Assembly (NCBI GenBank): GCA_000004985.1
Contig: GG739109.1
Reading direction: 5' to 3' (one strand)
Source of the DNA: Naegleria gruberi
Lineage: Eukaryota
DNA: 7,767 nt
In this document: in pieces, positions 1-7,767 of the stretch
How positions within the stretch are numbered: position 1 is the first letter of the stretch
How the letters are laid out: each line of letters begins with the position of its first letter
Program-made: the position numbers and the translations under genes
The notes under the pieces: generated by a model
Told to the model about the DNA's origin: nothing
What the model saw: only the letters and a program-made list of their open reading frames with translations
Database searches by the model: none

Positions 1-616
1 GAAGTGGGAATACACGAGAAGATACAGAGCTAGAGGAAGAGGTTGTTGATTTACCTTTTTTAGCAAGAGTAGAAGCACCTCCAGAAGATCTCATTCTGGG
101 AATTCTCTTATTGGAGGTTGATTTCTTGGTTGGCTTTGAAGTTCGTTTTTTTGGAGAAGTGGAAACTGAAATTTTCATTGTTTTGGATGCTGCTTTTTGG
201 CCGCGAACTTTCTTATTGGAAACTGGTGCTGAATTCTTCTTTCCTTTTGTTTTTCTTGCAGTTTTTCCATTAGACTTGTTCTTTGTTTCTAATTGTCCAT
301 TGTTATTAGAAACTTTGGACGAATCTACTTCCTTTTCTTTCTTTTGCGAATGAATCTTATCCAATACATCTTTAAAACGATCCATCACAGACGAATCCAT
401 GCTAAATATCTTCTTCAAGTCACCCAAAGTTTTTCCTGCGAATACTTTGTGAGCTTTCGCTCTCCATCCAAAGTTATTCGAATTGATTCTTTGAATTAAA
501 GATGGATCGTTGGCTGGAGTGTTATTTGGCTTTCCTGCAAGAACTGTCATCACACAACAAAGCAATAAAAATAATGTCAAGAGATGACAAGTGGCGTTTG
601 TGTGAATTTTGCTCAT
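1..616 (-). CDS. Secreted Lys/Ser-rich protein with an N-terminal signal peptide and a cathepsin-B-type propeptide-like segment. 5' complete (ATG 616-614) and 3' partial, running off the window at position 1.
   Basis: The frame is uninterrupted for 205 codons from ATG 616-614 to position 2, and an in-frame TAA lies 3 codons upstream (625-623). Both other minus frames hit stops quickly. Translation begins MSKIHTNATCHLLTLFLLLCCVMTVLA|GKP (n-region, a 16-aa hydrophobic core, V-L-A cleavage motif). It continues ...PSLIQRINSNNFGWRAKAHKVFAGKTLGDLKKIFSMD, then a K/S-rich tail (..SPKKRTSKPTKKSTSNKR..). The three plus-strand track ORFs here (111-353, 293-499, 502-690) are antisense to it. The track missed this ORF because it has no stop inside the window. 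Confidence 0.7.
   Translation of the reverse strand, partial: MSKIHTNATCHLLTLFLLLCCVMTVLAGKPNNTPANDPSLIQRINSNNFGWRAKAHKVFAGKTLGDLKKIFSMDSSVMDRFKDVLDKIHSQKKEKEVDSSKVSNNNGQLETKNKSNGKTARKTKGKKNSAPVSNKKVRGQKAASKTMKISVSTSPKKRTSKPTKKSTSNKRIPRMRSSGGASTLAKKGKSTTSSSSSVSSRVFPL
536..616 (-). other. Predicted signal peptide (residues 1-27) of the secreted protein
   Basis: MSKIHTNATCH, then LLTLFLLLCCVMTVLA, then cleavage context VLA|GK. I judged this by eye against the n/h/c rule, not with a predictor. Confidence 0.6.
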
Positions 617-793
617 TTTTTTTTAACGATGTTCGAATAAGAGATCTGTTATTTTCAATATTTCACAAATCACTTTCCCCAAGGAGGTGACATGATTAAT
701 ATGGCAGGAGTTTTTATCATTTACAATTATTCCAATAATTTTAAAAGAATGTTATTCGAAACACTGGATTATTGTAAAGTATAGTAAAGACTA

Positions 794-843
794 TTAAAAA
801 TACAACTTGATCAATGAATATTCAGGAGTAATTCCCATTCTCA
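794..843 (-). CDS. Terminal exon of the metallophosphoesterase gene (..LRMGITPEYSLIKLYF*), with stop TAA at 796-794
   Basis: The preceding exon ends ...GGA TTT CCA T immediately followed by a perfect GTAAGT donor, the T of which would otherwise begin an in-frame TAA. Joining the 1-nt overhang T(891) to TG(843-842) gives L, then RMGITPEYSLIKLYF*. The P-x-R..PE..L..L pattern matches the C-terminal tail I recall for YaeI-family proteins, but that recollection is from memory. The acceptor (gaatag) is weak by the C. elegans TTTCAG standard. Confidence 0.6.
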
Positions 844-890
844 CTATTCGAAATTCAAATAAAACCAAATATAGACATCATATTACTTAC
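844..890 (-). other. Intron, 47 nt (GTAAGTAAT...TTCGAATAG) on the minus strand
   Basis: The donor is a perfect GTAAGT. The length equals the modal Caenorhabditis intron size. The splice is phase 1 and continues the frame into a family-consistent tail. Confidence 0.6.
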
Positions 891-1387
891 ATGGAAATCC
901 GTAATGTCCAGTTCCTCTATGACTATACACTCTTAACTTTCCTCTTCCATATAATCCCTGATCTGGTGGATAAACCTTCTCATACCTTTCCTTCTTAATC
1001 AATTTCATAATCTTGTACATTGTCTTGACAAGTGTCATTCGTTTTTTTGGCCCTATTCGAATCTGACCTCCATGATAATGTCCTGAAAAGATTATCTCAC
1101 AACTATCATCCAATGGCACGTATGAAATCATGGCTGGATTGTGAATTAGGAAAATTCTTGGAATTTCATTTGATTTTCTTGGGAAATTCTTGAATAATTT
1201 TTCAGTTTTTTCTTTTGCAATTTTTCGGTCAAAGTAAAATAAAGAGCCAACAATTTGGACTTGAAATGGTTTGTTCAATATTTTGGTCAATCTGGGGATT
1301 TCGATGAGTAATTCGTCGTTTTCTAAGAGAGGAATGTTGTTTTCAATGTAGGCTTGTTTGATTTTTTCGTGAGCTTCATAATCATGA
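891..1387 (-). CDS. Main exon of the YaeI/YkuE-type (calcineurin-like) metallophosphoesterase gene
   Basis: Translation: HDYEAHEKIKQAYIENNIPLLENDELLIEIPRLTKILNK...PRIFLIHNPAMISYVPLDDSCEIIFSGHYHGGQIRIGP...GLYGRGKLRVYSHRGTGHYGFP. It contains the hallmark LIHNP and SGHxHGGQIR motifs of this family. Track ORF 883-1290 is its 3' part: the track's 'M' at 1290 is TTG (Leu), and the frame is open upstream to the splice acceptor at 1387/1388. Confidence 0.85.
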
Positions 1388-1444
1388 CTGAGAAAGGTTT
1401 AGTTTTAAAGAGAGAGGTAAGGAAAATATTCGAAAGTTACTTAC
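1388..1444 (-). other. Intron, 57 nt (GTAAGTAAC...CCTTTCTCAG) on the minus strand
   Basis: Removing it joins ...KVVACIGN to HDYEAHE..., rebuilding motif III (GNHD) of metallophosphoesterases. The Asn codon is split AA|T across the intron (phase 2). The unspliced read-through hits a stop (TAA 1401-1399) instead. Confidence 0.85.
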
Positions 1445-1534
1445 TTTCCAATGCATGCTACTACTTTATAAGAAATATCTTTCAGTGGAGAAAGGGCTTC
1501 TTTTAAACATGTGAAATCTTCATGACAATCACGT
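1445..1534 (-). CDS. Upstream exon (partial) of the metallophosphoesterase gene; its 5' boundary is uncertain and the rest of the gene is in the N gap
   Basis: Translation: (x)RDCHEDFTCLKEALSPLKDISYKVVACIGN. The LSPL...AC-GNHD spacing fits the region between motif II and motif III in YaeI-like proteins. There is an in-frame TGA at 1572-1570, so an acceptor must lie between; the candidate is ..aaatatag|A ending at 1535. The family's GD-x-x-D motif II would then sit in a further upstream exon hidden by the gap. Confidence 0.45.
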
Positions 1535-1574
1535 CTATATTTGGTAATATTTAAATTTTTTTTTGAATTTCATT

Positions 1575-4500
1575 NNNNNNNNNNNNNNNNNNNNNNNNNN
1601 NNNNNNNNNNNNNNNNNNNNNNNNNNNNNNNNNNNNNNNNNNNNNNNNNNNNNNNNNNNNNNNNNNNNNNNNNNNNNNNNNNNNNNNNNNNNNNNNNNNN
1701 NNNNNNNNNNNNNNNNNNNNNNNNNNNNNNNNNNNNNNNNNNNNNNNNNNNNNNNNNNNNNNNNNNNNNNNNNNNNNNNNNNNNNNNNNNNNNNNNNNNN
1801 NNNNNNNNNNNNNNNNNNNNNNNNNNNNNNNNNNNNNNNNNNNNNNNNNNNNNNNNNNNNNNNNNNNNNNNNNNNNNNNNNNNNNNNNNNNNNNNNNNNN
1901 NNNNNNNNNNNNNNNNNNNNNNNNNNNNNNNNNNNNNNNNNNNNNNNNNNNNNNNNNNNNNNNNNNNNNNNNNNNNNNNNNNNNNNNNNNNNNNNNNNNN
2001 NNNNNNNNNNNNNNNNNNNNNNNNNNNNNNNNNNNNNNNNNNNNNNNNNNNNNNNNNNNNNNNNNNNNNNNNNNNNNNNNNNNNNNNNNNNNNNNNNNNN
2101 NNNNNNNNNNNNNNNNNNNNNNNNNNNNNNNNNNNNNNNNNNNNNNNNNNNNNNNNNNNNNNNNNNNNNNNNNNNNNNNNNNNNNNNNNNNNNNNNNNNN
2201 NNNNNNNNNNNNNNNNNNNNNNNNNNNNNNNNNNNNNNNNNNNNNNNNNNNNNNNNNNNNNNNNNNNNNNNNNNNNNNNNNNNNNNNNNNNNNNNNNNNN
2301 NNNNNNNNNNNNNNNNNNNNNNNNNNNNNNNNNNNNNNNNNNNNNNNNNNNNNNNNNNNNNNNNNNNNNNNNNNNNNNNNNNNNNNNNNNNNNNNNNNNN
2401 NNNNNNNNNNNNNNNNNNNNNNNNNNNNNNNNNNNNNNNNNNNNNNNNNNNNNNNNNNNNNNNNNNNNNNNNNNNNNNNNNNNNNNNNNNNNNNNNNNNN
2501 NNNNNNNNNNNNNNNNNNNNNNNNNNNNNNNNNNNNNNNNNNNNNNNNNNNNNNNNNNNNNNNNNNNNNNNNNNNNNNNNNNNNNNNNNNNNNNNNNNNN
2601 NNNNNNNNNNNNNNNNNNNNNNNNNNNNNNNNNNNNNNNNNNNNNNNNNNNNNNNNNNNNNNNNNNNNNNNNNNNNNNNNNNNNNNNNNNNNNNNNNNNN
2701 NNNNNNNNNNNNNNNNNNNNNNNNNNNNNNNNNNNNNNNNNNNNNNNNNNNNNNNNNNNNNNNNNNNNNNNNNNNNNNNNNNNNNNNNNNNNNNNNNNNN
2801 NNNNNNNNNNNNNNNNNNNNNNNNNNNNNNNNNNNNNNNNNNNNNNNNNNNNNNNNNNNNNNNNNNNNNNNNNNNNNNNNNNNNNNNNNNNNNNNNNNNN
2901 NNNNNNNNNNNNNNNNNNNNNNNNNNNNNNNNNNNNNNNNNNNNNNNNNNNNNNNNNNNNNNNNNNNNNNNNNNNNNNNNNNNNNNNNNNNNNNNNNNNN
3001 NNNNNNNNNNNNNNNNNNNNNNNNNNNNNNNNNNNNNNNNNNNNNNNNNNNNNNNNNNNNNNNNNNNNNNNNNNNNNNNNNNNNNNNNNNNNNNNNNNNN
3101 NNNNNNNNNNNNNNNNNNNNNNNNNNNNNNNNNNNNNNNNNNNNNNNNNNNNNNNNNNNNNNNNNNNNNNNNNNNNNNNNNNNNNNNNNNNNNNNNNNNN
3201 NNNNNNNNNNNNNNNNNNNNNNNNNNNNNNNNNNNNNNNNNNNNNNNNNNNNNNNNNNNNNNNNNNNNNNNNNNNNNNNNNNNNNNNNNNNNNNNNNNNN
3301 NNNNNNNNNNNNNNNNNNNNNNNNNNNNNNNNNNNNNNNNNNNNNNNNNNNNNNNNNNNNNNNNNNNNNNNNNNNNNNNNNNNNNNNNNNNNNNNNNNNN
3401 NNNNNNNNNNNNNNNNNNNNNNNNNNNNNNNNNNNNNNNNNNNNNNNNNNNNNNNNNNNNNNNNNNNNNNNNNNNNNNNNNNNNNNNNNNNNNNNNNNNN
3501 NNNNNNNNNNNNNNNNNNNNNNNNNNNNNNNNNNNNNNNNNNNNNNNNNNNNNNNNNNNNNNNNNNNNNNNNNNNNNNNNNNNNNNNNNNNNNNNNNNNN
3601 NNNNNNNNNNNNNNNNNNNNNNNNNNNNNNNNNNNNNNNNNNNNNNNNNNNNNNNNNNNNNNNNNNNNNNNNNNNNNNNNNNNNNNNNNNNNNNNNNNNN
3701 NNNNNNNNNNNNNNNNNNNNNNNNNNNNNNNNNNNNNNNNNNNNNNNNNNNNNNNNNNNNNNNNNNNNNNNNNNNNNNNNNNNNNNNNNNNNNNNNNNNN
3801 NNNNNNNNNNNNNNNNNNNNNNNNNNNNNNNNNNNNNNNNNNNNNNNNNNNNNNNNNNNNNNNNNNNNNNNNNNNNNNNNNNNNNNNNNNNNNNNNNNNN
3901 NNNNNNNNNNNNNNNNNNNNNNNNNNNNNNNNNNNNNNNNNNNNNNNNNNNNNNNNNNNNNNNNNNNNNNNNNNNNNNNNNNNNNNNNNNNNNNNNNNNN
4001 NNNNNNNNNNNNNNNNNNNNNNNNNNNNNNNNNNNNNNNNNNNNNNNNNNNNNNNNNNNNNNNNNNNNNNNNNNNNNNNNNNNNNNNNNNNNNNNNNNNN
4101 NNNNNNNNNNNNNNNNNNNNNNNNNNNNNNNNNNNNNNNNNNNNNNNNNNNNNNNNNNNNNNNNNNNNNNNNNNNNNNNNNNNNNNNNNNNNNNNNNNNN
4201 NNNNNNNNNNNNNNNNNNNNNNNNNNNNNNNNNNNNNNNNNNNNNNNNNNNNNNNNNNNNNNNNNNNNNNNNNNNNNNNNNNNNNNNNNNNNNNNNNNNN
4301 NNNNNNNNNNNNNNNNNNNNNNNNNNNNNNNNNNNNNNNNNNNNNNNNNNNNNNNNNNNNNNNNNNNNNNNNNNNNNNNNNNNNNNNNNNNNNNNNNNNN
4401 NNNNNNNNNNNNNNNNNNNNNNNNNNNNNNNNNNNNNNNNNNNNNNNNNNNNNNNNNNNNNNNNNNNNNNNNNNNNNNNNNNNNNNNNNNNNNNNNNNNN

Positions 4501-6383
4501 NNNNNNNNNNNNNNNNNNNNNNNNNNNNNNNNNNNNNNNNNNNNNNNNNNNNNNNNNNNNNNNNNNNNNNNNNNNNNNNNNNNNNNNNNNNNNNNNNNNN
4601 NNNNNNNNNNNNNNNNNNNNNNNNNNNNNNNNNNNNNNNNNNNNNNNNNNNNNNNNNNNNNNNNNNNNNNNNNNNNNNNNNNNNNNNNNNNNNNNNNNNN
4701 NNNNNNNNNNNNNNNNNNNNNNNNNNNNNNNNNNNNNNNNNNNNNNNNNNNNNNNNNNNNNNNNNNNNNNNNNNNNNNNNNNNNNNNNNNNNNNNNNNNN
4801 NNNNNNNNNNNNNNNNNNNNNNNNNNNNNNNNNNNNNNNNNNNNNNNNNNNNNNNNNNNNNNNNNNNNNNNNNNNNNNNNNNNNNNNNNNNNNNNNNNNN
4901 NNNNNNNNNNNNNNNNNNNNNNNNNNNNNNNNNNNNNNNNNNNNNNNNNNNNNNNNNNNNNNNNNNNNNNNNNNNNNNNNNNNNNNNNNNNNNNNNNNNN
5001 NNNNNNNNNNNNNNNNNNNNNNNNNNNNNNNNNNNNNNNNNNNNNNNNNNNNNNNNNNNNNNNNNNNNNNNNNNNNNNNNNNNNNNNNNNNNNNNNNNNN
5101 NNNNNNNNNNNNNNNNNNNNNNNNNNNNNNNNNNNNNNNNNNNNNNNNNNNNNNNNNNNNNNNNNNNNNNNNNNNNNNNNNNNNNNNNNNNNNNNNNNNN
5201 NNNNNNNNNNNNNNNNNNNNNNNNNNNNNNNNNNNNNNNNNNNNNNNNNNNNNNNNNNNNNNNNNNNNNNNNNNNNNNNNNNNNNNNNNNNNNNNNNNNN
5301 NNNNNNNNNNNNNNNNNNNNNNNNNNNNNNNNNNNNNNNNNNNNNNNNNNNNNNNNNNNNNNNNNNNNNNNNNNNNNNNNNNNNNNNNNNNNNNNNNNNN
5401 NNNNNNNNNNNNNNNNNNNNNNNNNNNNNNNNNNNNNNNNNNNNNNNNNNNNNNNNNNNNNNNNNNNNNNNNNNNNNNNNNNNNNNNNNNNNNNNNNNNN
5501 NNNNNNNNNNNNNNNNNNNNNNNNNNNNNNNNNNNNNNNNNNNNNNNNNNNNNNNNNNNNNNNNNNNNNNNNNNNNNNNNNNNNNNNNNNNNNNNNNNNN
5601 NNNNNNNNNNNNNNNNNNNNNNNNNNNNNNNNNNNNNNNNNNNNNNNNNNNNNNNNNNNNNNNNNNNNNNNNNNNNNNNNNNNNNNNNNNNNNNNNNNNN
5701 NNNNNNNNNNNNNNNNNNNNNNNNNNNNNNNNNNNNNNNNNNNNNNNNNNNNNNNNNNNNNNNNNNNNNNNNNNNNNNNNNNNNNNNNNNNNNNNNNNNN
5801 NNNNNNNNNNNNNNNNNNNNNNNNNNNNNNNNNNNNNNNNNNNNNNNNNNNNNNNNNNNNNNNNNNNNNNNNNNNNNNNNNNNNNNNNNNNNNNNNNNNN
5901 NNNNNNNNNNNNNNNNNNNNNNNNNNNNNNNNNNNNNNNNNNNNNNNNNNNNNNNNNNNNNNNNNNNNNNNNNNNNNNNNNNNNNNNNNNNNNNNNNNNN
6001 NNNNNNNNNNNNNNNNNNNNNNNNNNNNNNNNNNNNNNNNNNNNNNNNNNNNNNNNNNNNNNNNNNNNNNNNNNNNNNNNNNNNNNNNNNNNNNNNNNNN
6101 NNNNNNNNNNNNNNNNNNNNNNNNNNNNNNNNNNNNNNNNNNNNNNNNNNNNNNNNNNNNNNNNNNNNNNNNNNNNNNNNNNNNNNNNNNNNNNNNNNNN
6201 NNNNNNNNNNNNNNNNNNNNNNNNNNNNNNNNNNNNNNNNNNNNNNNNNNNNNNNNNNNNNNNNNNNNNNNNNNNNNNNNNNNNNNNNNNNNNNNNNNNN
6301 NNNNNNNNNNNNNNNNNNNNNNNNNNNNNNNNNNNNNNNNNNNNNNNNNNNNNNNNNNNNNNNNNNNNNNNNNNNNNNNNNNN
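1575..6383. other. Scaffold gap (4809 N)
   Basis: Directly visible. The non-round length suggests a size-estimated gap from paired reads. The three kb-long track ORFs through this region (1535-6442 minus, 1541-6472 plus, 1563-6515 plus) are artefacts of N being translated as X. Confidence 0.99.
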
Positions 6384-6620
6384 ACCATATTTATTATCAG
6401 TTTTTCATTATTNTATGTTTTGGCTTGGAGAGAGATTTCCAAACCTTTTTTGATTCACTCCTTCAAGAGTGATTCAAAAATTATCAAACTCATTGTGAAC
6501 ATATTTCAAAGATAACCAACTTTTTCAACATCTACAAGATAGGGATCACACTCATATCAATTTTTTTGGTATGGTTCGAGCCTCAGTTTCTTTAATAAAT
6601 ACAAGACGTAGAATTCTGGA

Positions 6621-6818
6621 ATGTTTCTAGTTGATGTACACAAATCATTGCAATATCCATGGAAAGAAACACTGGAAATGAGTATAAGAGATTCTGGAGT
6701 TACACAATTGGCTGATCAGGATGTGCTCAATACTCTCGATAGAAAAACGAATGGAACATGGTTTCATGAAATGTTATTGGAAGATTGTCATAATTATGTG
6801 GGGGTGGGTGGGTCGTGA
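6621..6818 (+). CDS. Hypothetical 65-codon ORF (MFLVDVHKSLQYPWKETLEM...), coding status unresolved
   Basis: The composition looks protein-like, but codon usage is poor (CTA, GTA, ATA, ACG, TTA). No convincing donor site lies inside it. Its last 10 codons are encoded by the repeat and inverted-repeat sequence. The opposite strand is not coding here. Confidence 0.2.
   Translation: MFLVDVHKSLQYPWKETLEMSIRDSGVTQLADQDVLNTLDRKTNGTWFHEMLLEDCHNYVGVGGS
6778..6796 (+). repeat. Left arm of a perfect 19-bp inverted repeat (TGGAAGATTGTCATAATTA)
   Basis: This is the exact reverse complement of 7282-7300. Both flanking bases on each side mismatch, so the arms are exactly 19 nt. Confidence 0.85.
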
Positions 6819-6864
6819 AAAAAGGATGTCCATAATTACGTGGTCCAGAGTGGGTCAGAAAGTA
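6781..6864 (+). repeat. Two ~42-nt tandem direct repeat units (6781-6822 and 6823-6864), each with a GTC(C)ATAATTA(Y)GTGG...GTGGGTC core
   Basis: Hand alignment of aagattgtcataattatgtgggggtgggtgggtcgtgaaaaa against aggatgtccataattacgtggtccagagtgggtcagaaagta gives about 70% identity. The first unit overlaps the left inverted-repeat arm. A second repeat pair, 'aaagtagagc', sits at 6859-6868 and 6891-6900. Confidence 0.55.
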
Positions 6865-7208
6865 GAGCAGAGCAAAAACAAAAATTGGCAAAAGTAGAGC
6901 CGAAGGTTTATTAGCCAAGAGTGAGACAGCGTTCAAAGTATCAATTATCACTTGTTCTGCTAGCAACAAGTACTTCTGGGTTCTTGATTGTTTGTGTACC
7001 AACAACTTTGGGTAGGCATTCATCTAGATTGTTATGGTTGAATGTGCTATGGCTGATGTGGAAGGAAGCAAAGGGAGAACTCTCCTCCTGGTGGTACTGA
7101 TGAAGGTTGGTAGTTAGCAGGGTGGTGATGAAATCATGAGTAATTGTTGTTTGTTGTTTTTTTTTGTTGAATTTATAACGGTCAGAACATTCAACTTTCA
7201 GCGGTAAC

Positions 7209-7358
7209 ATGTTTGCTGGTAGTGTGAAAAAACTCACATGCAGTGGCCAGGATTTGTTGGGACGATCTTACAGTGGGGTTGTAATTATGACAATCTTCCA
7301 TTCACAACAATCCAGACACTTTCAAATCCAAATTGTGGAAATACCATCTTTCCACGAC
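7209..7358 (+). CDS. Candidate plus-strand first exon (50 codons) placed directly behind a TTTCAG acceptor. This is an alternative model to the minus-strand ORF at the window end.
   Basis: TTTCAG at 7196-7201 sits 7 nt before ATG 7209, a spacing typical of trans-spliced nematode gene starts. The exon ends GAC|GTGAGC at 7358/7359 in phase 0. A frame-compatible acceptor ..cttatacag|ATA lies at 7615/7616 and opens a frame to the window end. Against it: the exon runs through the right inverted-repeat arm, and codon usage is mediocre (ACG, GGC, GTA). Confidence 0.2.
7282..7300 (-). repeat. Right arm of the 19-bp inverted repeat
   Basis: Plus strand reads TAATTATGACAATCTTCCA, the reverse complement of 6778-6796. 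The spacer is 485 nt and the total span 523 nt. Confidence 0.85.
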
Positions 7359-7621
7359 GTGAGCACTTATTTGATTGGATTGAAAATCCTAACTATACTC
7401 TTACATGTTCTTGAACTCGTATTTAACAATCTTGTGCAAGAACAAAAAAAATAATTTAGCAATTATCTATCAACATTATCCTTTTCTGTGCAATGCACTA
7501 ATTCTTCATTCAACACCTCTGTTGTGAAATATTCACTAAAATCAAAAGTTATACTCTTTCTGTCTCAAAATTAAGAATGACATGAAATAATTTGATTCTG
7601 TTTAAACTTATACAGATACTC

Positions 7622-7767
7622 TCAAGCACATACCAGACCATCAAAACCATGAACCAAGAAGGTATCTGCATCCAAAAACAAGAAATGTGCCAATTTATGT
7701 TGAAAGTATTCAATCAACTTCTTGTTGGCAGAACGAGCCACTATAATNGTGTAGATTTGACATGGAT
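7622..7767 (-). CDS. 5'-partial minus-strand ORF with a glycosyltransferase GT-A-like DxD context (..KLIEYFQHKLAHFLFLDADTFLVHGFDGLVCA*). It may be a terminal exon or a gene fragment.
   Basis: The frame is open from the window edge down to TGA at 7624-7622. Codon choice (TAC, AAC, AAG, ATC, TTC, CGT) is more Caenorhabditis-like than the overlapping plus frame. hhhh-DADT-hh is the classic DxD nucleotide-sugar-binding context. A CTG|GTATGT donor at 7634/7633 exists, but no downstream acceptor yields an extended frame. A stop so soon after DxD is atypical for an intact enzyme. Confidence 0.35.
   Translation of the reverse strand, partial: PCQIYXIIVARSANKKLIEYFQHKLAHFLFLDADTFLVHGFDGLVCA

What the first reader, a model, noticed from the sequence alone, without database searches (positions are those of the whole stretch)
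1..616. Secreted protein pairing a cathepsin-B-type propeptide-like segment with a long Lys/Ser-rich basic tail and no visible peptidase domain
After a canonical signal peptide, residues ~39-70 (nt ~502-407) read SLIQRINSNNFGWRAKAHKVFAGKTLGDLKKI. This matches the pattern I recall for the cathepsin-B pro-region (Pfam Propeptide_C1), [LI][VI]..[VI]N..N..W.A...[HN] ........ L.DLKK[LI]. Human CatB has ELVNYVNKRNTTWQAGHNF...SYLKRL. Where the Cys-protease domain (QGSCGSCWAF) would follow, there is instead a 130+-residue open frame that is K/S/T/N-rich with SPKK-like motifs. It could be a standalone propeptide-like protease inhibitor with a polycationic tail. It could equally be a CatB-like gene whose catalytic exons lie beyond position 1. 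Either reading is unusual.
Basis: partly seen in the sequence, partly recalled or inferred. Interest (0 to 1): 0.6.

Follow-up and report, generated by a model that had tools for sequence, protein, structure and literature searches.

The report
Truncated Naegleria cathepsin-B-pro-like secreted ORF
At the end of a small Naegleria gruberi scaffold lies the start of a probable secreted protein whose first part weakly but non-randomly resembles the cathepsin B pro-region and then becomes a long basic Lys/Ser-rich tail; the assembly ends before one can see whether a protease domain follows, and the public annotation wrongly fuses this ORF to the neighbouring phosphoesterase gene.

Summary
The ORF is real. 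It starts at the ATG at 616 (minus strand) and is open for 205 codons to position 1. It has a signal-peptide-like leader, a cathepsin-B-pro-region-like segment (residues 39-69) and a very basic K/S/T-rich tail. PF08127 is the top Pfam hit, at 16.9-19.8 bits (E 0.006-0.0008), below the 32.7-bit gathering score. Shuffled controls and an independent profile from solved zymogens (1/50,000 shuffles) support the match. The window appears to be a whole 7,767-bp Naegleria gruberi scaffold, so the assembly ends at position 1 and a downstream peptidase domain cannot be checked. No frame of 1-420 hides one. The public model XP_002668361.1 fuses this ORF to the upstream metallophosphoesterase through a 347-nt intron that deletes the ATG and leader. 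That model is wrong. The phosphoesterase splices over a 47-nt intron to a conserved terminal mini-exon with its own stop (843-794). The ORF is therefore an independent gene with no detectable orthologue. The most likely reading (about 0.4) is the pre-pro end of a divergent member of the N. gruberi-expanded cathepsin B family, with a low-complexity-inflated pro-region. A domain-less derivative, a chance resemblance and a decaying gene copy remain open. Interest is modest.

The parts
1..616 (-). ORF of interest: ATG at 616-614, 205 codons, still open at the scaffold end (3' end missing)
   Evidence: Translation. In-frame TAA three codons upstream of the ATG. Open frame in 2 of 20,000 shuffles.
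536..616 (-). Signal-peptide-like leader, residues 1-27 (MSKIHTNATCH / LLTLFLLLCCVMTVL / A|GK)
   Evidence: Hydropathy maximum 2.9 over residues 12-26, and the -3/-1 rule is satisfied after A27. This is heuristic only; SignalP was not available.
410..502 (-). Cathepsin-B-type pro-region-like segment, residues 39-69 (SLIQRINSNNFGWRAKAHKVFAGKTLGDLKK)
   Evidence: PF08127 positions 4-32 of 40: 16.9 bits, E 0.0064; 19.8 bits, E 0.0008; GA 32.7. Independent zymogen profile 11.5 bits, 1 of 50,000 shuffles.
332..394 (-). Predicted helix, residues about 75-95 (SVMDRFKDVLDKIHSQKKEKE), replacing the cleft-spanning part of a canonical CatB pro-region
   Evidence: AF2 single-sequence model: helix 48-68 of the 73-residue fragment, block pLDDT 66-85, mean pLDDT 68. 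Low-to-moderate confidence.
1..331 (-). Basic Lys/Ser/Thr-rich low-complexity tail, residues 96-205 (pI 11.9; one SPKK at residue 154)
   Evidence: Composition. Codon-position bias p=5e-7. No Pfam family.
49..55 (-). Donor-like G|GTAAAT (GT at 54-53), used as the last exon boundary by the public model; use unproven, and the frame stays open through it
   Evidence: P0001 ends ...STLAKK.
617..793 (-). Intergenic spacer (177 nt) between the phosphoesterase stop and the ORF's ATG
   Evidence: No codon-position bias, p=0.8. Not conserved with L001 or L002.
794..843 (-). True terminal exon of the upstream metallophosphoesterase: (L)RMGITPEYSLIKLYF plus TAA
   Evidence: conserved with L002, two N. 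lovaniensis paralogues and Willaertia magna.
844..890 (-). 47-nt intron (GTAAGTAAT...CGAATAG) of the phosphoesterase gene
   Evidence: An equivalent intron of about 55 nt is in L002.
891..1387 (-). Main phosphoesterase exon (HDYEAH...GHYGFP)
   Evidence: 100% identity to P0001. Alignment A1. The re-spliced protein scores 22.4 bits on Metallophos against GA 21.5.
1388..1444 (-). 57-nt intron (GTAAGTAAC...TTTCTCAG) whose removal restores the GNHDYE motif
1445..1574 (-). Upstream phosphoesterase exon, cut off by the N gap
   Evidence: tblastx 1548-1432 to L002 and 1530-1432 to L001.
544..890 (-). 347-nt 'intron' of the public model XP_002668361.1, which removes the ORF's ATG and leader; judged an annotation artefact
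   Evidence: P0001 sequence ...GHYGFP|FLAGKPNN..., against the conserved terminal exon and stop inside this interval.

Best explanation
Window 616..1 (minus strand) is the 5' part of an independent Naegleria gruberi gene that the public annotation has merged by mistake with the upstream metallophosphoesterase. It encodes a secretory-pathway protein with four parts: a cleavable-looking signal peptide (residues 1-27); about 11 residues later, a divergent copy of the N-terminal helix/Trp-turn/helix element of the cathepsin-B-type pro-region (residues 39-69); a further helix; and at least 110 residues of very basic, Ser/Thr-rich, probably disordered sequence that runs off the scaffold.

I think it is most likely the pre-pro end of a divergent member of the cathepsin B family, which is expanded in N. 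gruberi. In this reading the link between the pro-region's docking element and the catalytic domain has been inflated by low-complexity sequence, and the catalytic domain lies in unassembled DNA beyond position 1.

Inferred mechanism, not shown: the pro element docks on the occluding-loop face of its own enzyme and keeps it latent through secretion or lysosomal delivery. The whole pro-region, tail included, is removed on acid or autocatalytic activation. The polycationic tail could additionally tether the zymogen to anionic surfaces.

Shown: the ORF, its separateness from the phosphoesterase, its coding character, and the sub-threshold but non-random PF08127 match.

Inferred: signal-peptide cleavage, homology, the existence of a downstream catalytic domain, and all function.
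For: ORF and start. Coding character of the tail.

Independence from the upstream gene: the conserved terminal mini-exon 843-794 with its stop aligns with four relatives. The annotated fusion diverges exactly at the splice point.

Pro-region resemblance: PF08127 is the top hit at E 0.0064 and E 0.0008. Dividing by the 24,736 models gives a per-family p of about 3e-8 to 3e-7, so fewer than 0.01 chance hits would be expected across a proteome of about 15,700 proteins. None of 9 reversed or shuffled controls hit. An independent zymogen profile gives the same register, reached by 1 of 50,000 shuffles.

Position: the motif begins 11 residues after the predicted cleavage site, as in human procathepsin B (RSRPSFHPLSD|ELVNYVN, sequence verified against 1pbh).

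Context: N. gruberi encodes 35 C01 cathepsins, with at least three lineage-specific expansions in the cathepsin B clade (PMC8296547).

Genuine CatB pro-regions are themselves barely alignable pairwise: human against S. mansoni gives 24-26 bits, and kinetoplastid zymogens are missed by a 3-sequence profile. A weak score is therefore expected for a distant member.
Against: The PF08127 score is well below Pfam's gathering threshold (32.7 bits) and covers only positions 4-32 of 40. The part of a CatB pro-region that runs through the active-site cleft, and the LPxSFDxRxxWPxC junction, are not recognisable.

No catalytic domain is seen, and none can be with the available sequence. A pro-region of at least 178 residues would be far longer than the roughly 60-90 usual for cathepsin B.

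BLASTP against human procathepsin B finds nothing, and phmmer against PDB finds no procathepsin. An unrelated beta-mannanase reached 16.8 bits on my small profile by chance, which shows how short-motif hits can mislead.

No orthologue was found at the syntenic position in N. lovaniensis or the closest metagenomic relative, and there were no hits among 1.84 billion representatives. There is no expression evidence.

Confidence: 0.4

Rival explanations
1. Domain-less derivative. The gene ends not far beyond position 1 without a peptidase domain. It encodes a secreted protein made of a CatB-pro-region-derived head and a polycationic disordered tail. This could be a partial duplicate of a cathepsin B gene that acquired a new function: a trans-acting modulator or inhibitor of the expanded CatB family, or a cationic surface- or nucleic-acid-binding secreted factor.
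For: The same homology evidence applies. No peptidase domain appears within 178 residues after the leader or in any other frame. The head has diverged strongly, which fits release from intramolecular constraint. Lineage-specific CatB expansions provide raw material for partial duplicates. Propeptide-like standalone inhibitors exist for the cathepsin L type (family I29: CTLA-2, crammer, BCPI; PMC4089206).
Against: The segment that actually blocks the active-site cleft in CatB zymogens is not recognisable, so inhibition has no structural basis here. No CatB-type standalone pro-like inhibitor is known (my own knowledge). No homologue was found in any other organism. The 3' end is unseen.
Confidence: 0.18
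2. Chance resemblance. This is a lineage-specific (orphan) secreted, low-complexity Naegleria protein with no evolutionary link to cathepsin B. The PF08127 match is a short-motif coincidence that the first reader's pattern-based selection singled out.
For: The match is below threshold and only 29 profile positions long. There is no pairwise similarity to any solved zymogen. A comparable chance hit occurred in an unrelated mannanase. No homologues were found anywhere. The AF2 model is generic helices with no fold match.
Against: The per-family p of about 3e-8 to 3e-7 makes a chance PF08127 hit improbable even proteome-wide. An independent profile gives an empirical p of about 2e-5 in the same register. 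The match sits at the canonical distance after a signal peptide. The genome carries an expanded CatB family.
Confidence: 0.22
3. Non-functional remnant. This is a decaying or recently arisen fragment (a partial CatB duplication followed by unrelated low-complexity DNA), or an assembly oddity on a tiny gap-ridden scaffold, that is not expressed as a stable protein.
For: The scaffold is 7.8 kb, 62% of it is N, and it ends inside the ORF. There is no orthologue at the syntenic site in relatives. The pro motif is strongly diverged. No expression data were available.
Against: The ORF has 205 uninterrupted codons in 33% GC DNA (2 of 20,000 shuffles). The tail shows marked codon-position bias (p=5e-7). 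The ATG context (AAAAAAAAATG) and the signal peptide are intact.
Confidence: 0.15
4. The public annotation is right. The region is the 3' extension of the metallophosphoesterase (XP_002668361.1), joined by a 347-nt intron (890..544). The 'signal peptide' is then intronic and the protein is not secreted.
For: The deposited model reads ...GHYGFP|FLAGKPNN...STLAKK. The GTAAGT donor at 890 is a genuine splice donor.
Against: That donor pairs with an acceptor 47 nt downstream to give LRMGITPEYSLIKLYF plus a stop. This matches GFPLR[MLI][GA]Ixx[ST]ExSLIxLY[FY] at the C-terminus of four relatives. No relative carries the extension. The supposedly intronic last 72 nt are in frame with the downstream ORF, start with an ATG preceded by a stop, and encode a canonical leader.
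Confidence: 0.03

Closest known systems
Cathepsin B-type papain-family zymogens (MEROPS C1A; Pfam PF08127 Propeptide_C1 + PF00112 Peptidase_C1), including the expanded N. gruberi/N. fowleri cathepsin B clade
   Same: A signal peptide is followed about 11 residues later by the [LI][IV]xx[IV]N..N..W.A...F....L.. element. PF08127 is the top Pfam hit, in the same register as solved zymogens. The host genome is rich in this family.
   Different: The score is below the gathering threshold. The C-terminal, cleft-spanning half of the pro-region and the junction motif are absent. At least 135 residues of helix plus polycationic low-complexity sequence follow instead of the roughly 30-50 residues to the mature N-terminus. 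No catalytic domain is visible because the scaffold ends.
Propeptide-like cysteine-protease inhibitors of family I29 (mouse CTLA-2alpha/beta, Drosophila crammer, Bombyx BCPI)
   Same: The concept is shared: a free-standing protein derived from a papain-family pro-region that inhibits cathepsins in trans (PMC4089206, PMC3551606).
   Different: I29 proteins derive from the cathepsin L-type (ERFNIN) pro-region, not the cathepsin B type. They are small (about 80-110 residues) and lack a basic tail. No PF08246 signal appears here at E<=10.
Protist papain-family peptidases with unusually long pro-regions (e.g. cathepsin F-like and apicomplexan enzymes; my own knowledge, not tested here)
   Same: They are a precedent for pro-regions of well over 150 residues preceding a C1 catalytic domain.
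   Different: Those extensions are not Lys/Ser-rich polycationic tracts inserted after a CatB-type docking element, and no sequence similarity was tested or found.
Public gene model XP_002668361.1 / EFC35617.1 ('predicted protein, partial', N. gruberi)
   Same: It contains residues 26-188 of this ORF verbatim.
   Different: It is a chimera. It joins the phosphoesterase to the ORF over a 347-nt intron and skips the phosphoesterase's conserved terminal exon and stop as well as the ORF's own ATG and leader.

Membership tests
Cathepsin B-type C1A peptidase zymogen | N-terminal signal peptide | tested here: met
   The leader has an n-region with K3, a 15-residue h-region (KD 2.9) and V-L-A|G at -3/-1 after residue 27. 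An in-frame stop lies before the ATG. This is heuristic; SignalP was not available.
Cathepsin B-type C1A peptidase zymogen | Pro-region matching Pfam PF08127 at or above the gathering score (32.7 bits) | tested here: inconclusive
   The score is 16.9 bits, E 0.0064, and 19.8 bits, E 0.0008. That is below GA, but PF08127 is the top hit and covers positions 4-32 of 40. Controls were negative. The independent profile score was reached by 1 of 50,000 shuffles.
Cathepsin B-type C1A peptidase zymogen | C-terminal half of the pro-region (cleft-spanning segment) and the LPxSFDxRxxWPxC junction to the mature enzyme | tested here: not met
   Profile positions 33-40 are unmatched. Nothing resembling the junction occurs in residues 70-205. 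It could still lie beyond position 1.
Cathepsin B-type C1A peptidase zymogen | Peptidase_C1 catalytic domain (Cys/His/Asn, CGSCWAF motif, occluding loop) | not testable with these tools
   It is absent from all three minus-strand frames of about 1-420. However, the window appears to be the whole scaffold, and no overlapping or orthologous sequence could be retrieved.
I29 propeptide-like cysteine-protease inhibitors (CTLA-2/crammer/BCPI) | Homology to the cathepsin L-type pro-region (Pfam Inhibitor_I29, ERFNIN motif) | tested here: not met
   No PF08246 hit at E<=10 for the whole ORF or for the isolated segment.
I29 propeptide-like cysteine-protease inhibitors (CTLA-2/crammer/BCPI) | Small free-standing protein that ends after the pro-like domain and inhibits cathepsins | not testable with these tools
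   The ORF continues for at least 135 residues beyond the motif and its end is unseen. Inhibition needs an experiment.
Calcineurin-like metallophosphoesterase with C-terminal extension (the annotated fusion XP_002668361.1) | The phosphoesterase reading frame continues into the ORF through intron 890..544 | tested here: not met
   A conserved terminal exon with a stop at 843-794 lies inside that 'intron'. Four relatives end ...GFPLRxGIxxExSLIxLYF.

The most novel reading that the evidence does not exclude
The gene ends shortly beyond the scaffold without a catalytic domain and encodes the first known free-standing cathepsin-B-type pro-region derivative. It would be a secreted head that docks on the occluding-loop face of the many N. 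gruberi cathepsin B paralogues, fused to a polycationic disordered tail that tethers it (or the bound enzyme) to anionic surfaces such as bacterial prey or extracellular matrix. That would be a trans-acting regulator born from a partial duplication in a lineage-specific protease expansion.
Probability: 0.12. Interest if true: 0.6.

Novelty: new variant of a known kind. Interest (0 to 1): 0.27.

Why it matters
If the ORF is a cathepsin B family member with a pro-region of more than 170 residues carrying a polycationic tract, it would add an unusual zymogen architecture to a protease family that is expanded in Naegleria and linked to pathogenicity in N. fowleri. If it lacks a catalytic domain, it would be the first cathepsin-B-type counterpart of the I29 propeptide-like inhibitors.

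The practical result stands either way. A deposited N. gruberi gene model (XP_002668361.1) is a chimera of two genes. The phosphoesterase's real C-terminal exon and the downstream gene's start codon and signal peptide are both missing from the public protein set, and that absence may have contributed to the empty homology searches. The case also shows how much weight a sub-threshold short-domain hit can bear, and how much it cannot.

Tried and rejected
1. Word-indexed homology search. Two runs with the full or N-terminal ORF timed out. The 64-residue core found no candidates, and so did a synthetic bait of the pro-like segment plus the DQGSCGSCWAFG motif. These negatives are unreliable, because P0001 contains the 64-residue core exactly and was still not found.

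2. Exhaustive phmmer against 1.84 billion representatives gave 0 hits. P0001 is probably hidden behind a phosphoesterase representative at 50% clustering.

3. Synteny. In the N. lovaniensis locus L001 a PIG-U gene follows the phosphoesterase. The metagenomic relative L002 has an unrelated TM-rich ORF downstream. tblastn and tblastx of the ORF gave only low-complexity matches.

4. Two metagenome scans, one with the ORF core and one with the phosphoesterase as anchor, found nothing.

5. Exact-product look-ups for P0001, P0002 and two start variants of the in-window phosphoesterase exon ORF, aimed at longer read-set contigs, were not on record.

6. phmmer of the ORF and of the segment against PDB sequences found no procathepsin. 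BLASTP against human procathepsin B gave no alignment.

7. AF2 on a single sequence gave pLDDT 68 and an all-helical model. Foldseek against PDB gave nothing below E=4.8. This is uninformative.

8. Frameshifted-pseudogene idea: the other two frames of 1-420 carry no Peptidase_C1 signal. Rejected.

9. Intron reading of the tail: rejected on open-frame and codon-bias statistics.

11. A supplement search of PMC8296547 for Naegleria CatB sequences found only tables, no sequences.

12. Extending my zymogen profile to kinetoplastid enzymes failed. They are too divergent to be pulled in by the N-terminal pro-region alone.
Full report
WHAT IS THERE

On the minus strand an ATG at 616-614 opens a frame that stays open for 205 codons to window position 1. 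An in-frame TAA lies three codons upstream of that ATG. The product reads MSKIHTNATCHLLTLFLLLCCVMTVLA|GKPNNTPANDP-SLIQRINSNNFGWRAKAHKVFAGKTLGDLKKI-FSMDSSVMDRFKDVLDKIHSQKKEKE- followed by a Lys/Ser/Thr/Asn-rich tract.

The leader has a 15-residue hydrophobic core (mean Kyte-Doolittle 2.9) and a V-L-A|G site after residue 27. Residues 96-205 contain 29 K+R and 35 S+T, have no Cys and a pI of 11.9, and contain one SPKK.

The long open frame is not an accident of composition. Only 2 of 20,000 shuffles of the 135 codons after residue 70 remain open, and the other two frames of the strand carry 11 and 14 stops. The tail also shows strong codon-position composition bias (p=5e-7), whereas the adjacent spacer shows none (p=0.8). 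The K/S-rich stretch therefore behaves as coding sequence, not as intron.

WHERE IT COMES FROM

The neighbouring gene upstream on the same strand identified the source. Its translation is 100% identical to a protein named 'predicted protein, partial [Naegleria gruberi]', whose only contig is 7,767 bp, the length of this window. The window therefore appears to be a complete small scaffold of the N. gruberi NEG-M draft assembly. 62% of it is an N gap (1575-6383). Position 1 is thus an assembly end, not a window edge: sequence extended leftward does not exist in that assembly. The organism is a heterolobosean amoeboflagellate, not a nematode, so the 'cpr-like' framing does not apply.

THE PUBLIC ANNOTATION IS A CHIMERA

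The deposited model (XP_002668361.1 = EFC35617.1) reads ...SHRGTGHYGFP|FLAGKPNNTPANDPSLIQRIN...STLAKK. It joins the metallophosphoesterase exon to the ORF of interest through a 347-nt intron (donor GT at 890-889, acceptor AG at 545-544). This discards the ORF's ATG and its whole leader.

Comparison with relatives shows this model is wrong. In the closest available relative (metagenomic contig L002), the sequence after ...GFP is cca t|gtaagtag...ttaattaatcag|tg cgg att gga.... Removing an intron of about 55 nt gives GFP-LRIGIPSEHSLIQLYF*, which matches the annotated N. lovaniensis C-terminus GFPLRLGISSEQSLIHLYF. The window has the same structure. The GT at 890 pairs with an AG at 845-844, giving a 47-nt intron, and the following mini-exon (843-794) encodes LRMGITPEYSLIKLYF and a TAA.

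The re-spliced protein aligns to the very end with L002, two N. lovaniensis paralogues and Willaertia magna. The public model departs from all of them exactly at the splice point. tblastx independently aligns window 844-794 to L002 4246-4296 and to L001 10937-10987, the end of the N. lovaniensis gene, and finds no conservation in window 1-793. The re-spliced protein passes the Pfam Metallophos threshold (22.4 bits against 21.5). A second intron (1444-1388, 57 nt) restores the GNHDYE motif.

The phosphoesterase therefore ends at 794. The ORF of interest starts 177 nt further on, with its own ATG and leader, and is a separate gene.

IS THE PRO-REGION RESEMBLANCE REAL?

It scores 16.9 bits (E=0.0064) for the whole ORF and 19.8 bits (E=0.0008) for residues 28-91 alone. 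Pfam's gathering score is 32.7. The reversed sequence and eight shuffles gave no PF08127 hit, and the best noise for any family was E=0.076.

Those E-values are already multiplied by 24,736 families. The probability for this one family is therefore about 3e-8 to 3e-7 per sequence, so fewer than 0.01 chance hits are expected across a proteome of about 15,700 proteins (gene number from PMC8296547).

As an independent check I built a profile from the N-terminal pro-regions of three solved zymogens: human 1pbh, rat 1mir and S. mansoni 4i04. Their sequences were read, and the alignment is A3. The profile aligns LIQRINSNNFGWRAKA to linYiNkrNttWqAgk at 11.5 bits, and only 1 of 50,000 composition-matched shuffles reaches that score. 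The motif also starts 11 residues after the predicted signal cleavage site, the same spacing as in human procathepsin B.

There are points against. BLASTP against the verified human pro-region finds no alignment. phmmer against all PDB sequences finds no procathepsin. My small profile gave an unrelated beta-mannanase 16.8 bits by chance.

The pairwise failures carry little weight, because genuine CatB pro-regions hardly match each other. Human against S. mansoni gives 24-26 bits, much of it from the junction motif, and the kinetoplastid zymogens are not recovered at all by the three-sequence profile.

I judge homology to the cathepsin-B-type pro-region probable, at roughly 0.75, but not established. 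Only the N-terminal docking element is recognisable. The segment that threads the active-site cleft, and the LPxSFDxRxxWPxC junction, are not.

WHAT FOLLOWS THE MOTIF

Inside the window nothing peptidase-like follows. The tail matches no Pfam family, and the two alternative frames of 1-420 show no Peptidase_C1 signal, which excludes a frameshifted pseudogene. A single-sequence AlphaFold model of residues 28-100 is helical with mean pLDDT 68 and matches nothing in the PDB. That result is uninformative.

ATTEMPTS TO SEE BEYOND POSITION 1 OR TO FIND RELATIVES

All attempts failed.
- Exhaustive phmmer against 1.84 billion representatives found nothing.
- Word-indexed searches found nothing. That index missed an exact substring of P0001, so its negatives are weak.
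- The syntenic position in N. lovaniensis holds a PIG-U gene, and L002 holds an unrelated ORF.
- Two metagenome scans found nothing.
- Four exact-product look-ups found nothing.

As far as these data go, the ORF is specific to N. gruberi or evolving fast.

INTERPRETATION

N. gruberi has 35 C01 cathepsins, with at least three species-specific expansions in the cathepsin B clade (PMC8296547). This gives a natural source for a divergent or partial CatB-derived gene. My ranking is as follows.

(a) About 0.40: the pre-pro end of a divergent CatB-family zymogen. Its pro-region is inflated by low-complexity sequence of the kind also seen in an N. lovaniensis ORF fetched here, and the catalytic domain lies in unassembled DNA.

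(b) About 0.18: a catalytic-domain-less derivative, with a secreted pro-like head and a polycationic tail.

(c) About 0.22: a chance resemblance in an orphan secreted low-complexity protein.

(d) About 0.15: a non-functional remnant on a poor scaffold.

(e) About 0.03: the annotated fusion.

The 'standalone inhibitor' idea has a conceptual precedent only in the cathepsin-L-type I29 family (CTLA-2, crammer, BCPI; PMC4089206). There is no sequence support for it here, because the cleft-binding part is missing.

VERDICT

The solid new result is a curation one. A public gene model merges two genes, hiding both the real C-terminus of a metallophosphoesterase and the start of a probable secreted, CatB-pro-like, polycationic protein.

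Interest is modest (about 0.27). It would rise if the missing 3' sequence showed either a peptidase with an exceptional pro-region or no peptidase at all.

Noticed in passing
window 544-890 and 794-843 (minus strand): The public N. gruberi gene model XP_002668361.1/EFC35617.1 is a chimera of two genes. It skips the phosphoesterase's conserved terminal mini-exon (LRMGITPEYSLIKLYF*) and splices over 347 nt into the downstream ORF.
   Followed up: yes
window 844-890; L002 about 4193-4247; L001 10892-10987: The intron right after ...GHYGFP is present in N. gruberi (47 nt) and in the metagenomic relative L002 (about 55 nt). It is absent in N. lovaniensis, where the two tblastx pieces are contiguous and in the same frame. 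This is an intron presence/absence difference within the group.
   Followed up: partly
L002 3769-4200: The ENA gene call P0003 ends at ...GFPCK* because the stop codon (TAG) lies inside the GTAAGTAG splice donor. A non-splicing gene caller truncates the protein there. The N. gruberi ORF 883-1290 shows the same false end (GFPCK*, TAA inside GTAAGTAA).
   Followed up: yes
window 1388-1444 (minus strand): A 57-nt intron (GTAAGTAAC...TTTCTCAG) restores the GNHDYE metallophosphoesterase motif when removed. Together with the 47-nt intron it gives two homology-verified examples of short N. gruberi introns with a GTAAGTAA donor.
   Followed up: yes
window 1575-6383 and 6384-7767: 62% of the scaffold is an N gap. 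The right arm (1.4 kb) has no Pfam, Rfam, tRNA or tblastx signal. It has higher GC (0.37-0.41) and a strong positive GC skew (up to +0.36 at 6751-7250), including a G-run (gtgggggtgggtgggtcgtg) near 6797-6816. Its relation to the left arm is unverified.
   Followed up: partly
P0004 (N. lovaniensis, L001 10001-10987): The N. lovaniensis model P0004 lacks the HGGQIRIG... block that all other relatives have in alignment A1 (columns about 250-267). This suggests that its gene model is also mis-spliced at that point.
   Followed up: no
tool behaviour (against 33): The word-indexed protein search reported no candidates for a 64-residue query that is an exact substring of a representative in its own database (P0001). 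Its negative results should not be read as absence.
   Followed up: partly
window 1-21 (minus strand; residues 199-205, ...SSRVFPL): The ORF leaves the low-complexity tract just at the scaffold end (…VSSRVFPL). Whether this is the approach to a folded domain cannot be told. It is pure speculation, noted only as a reason to extend the sequence.
   Followed up: no
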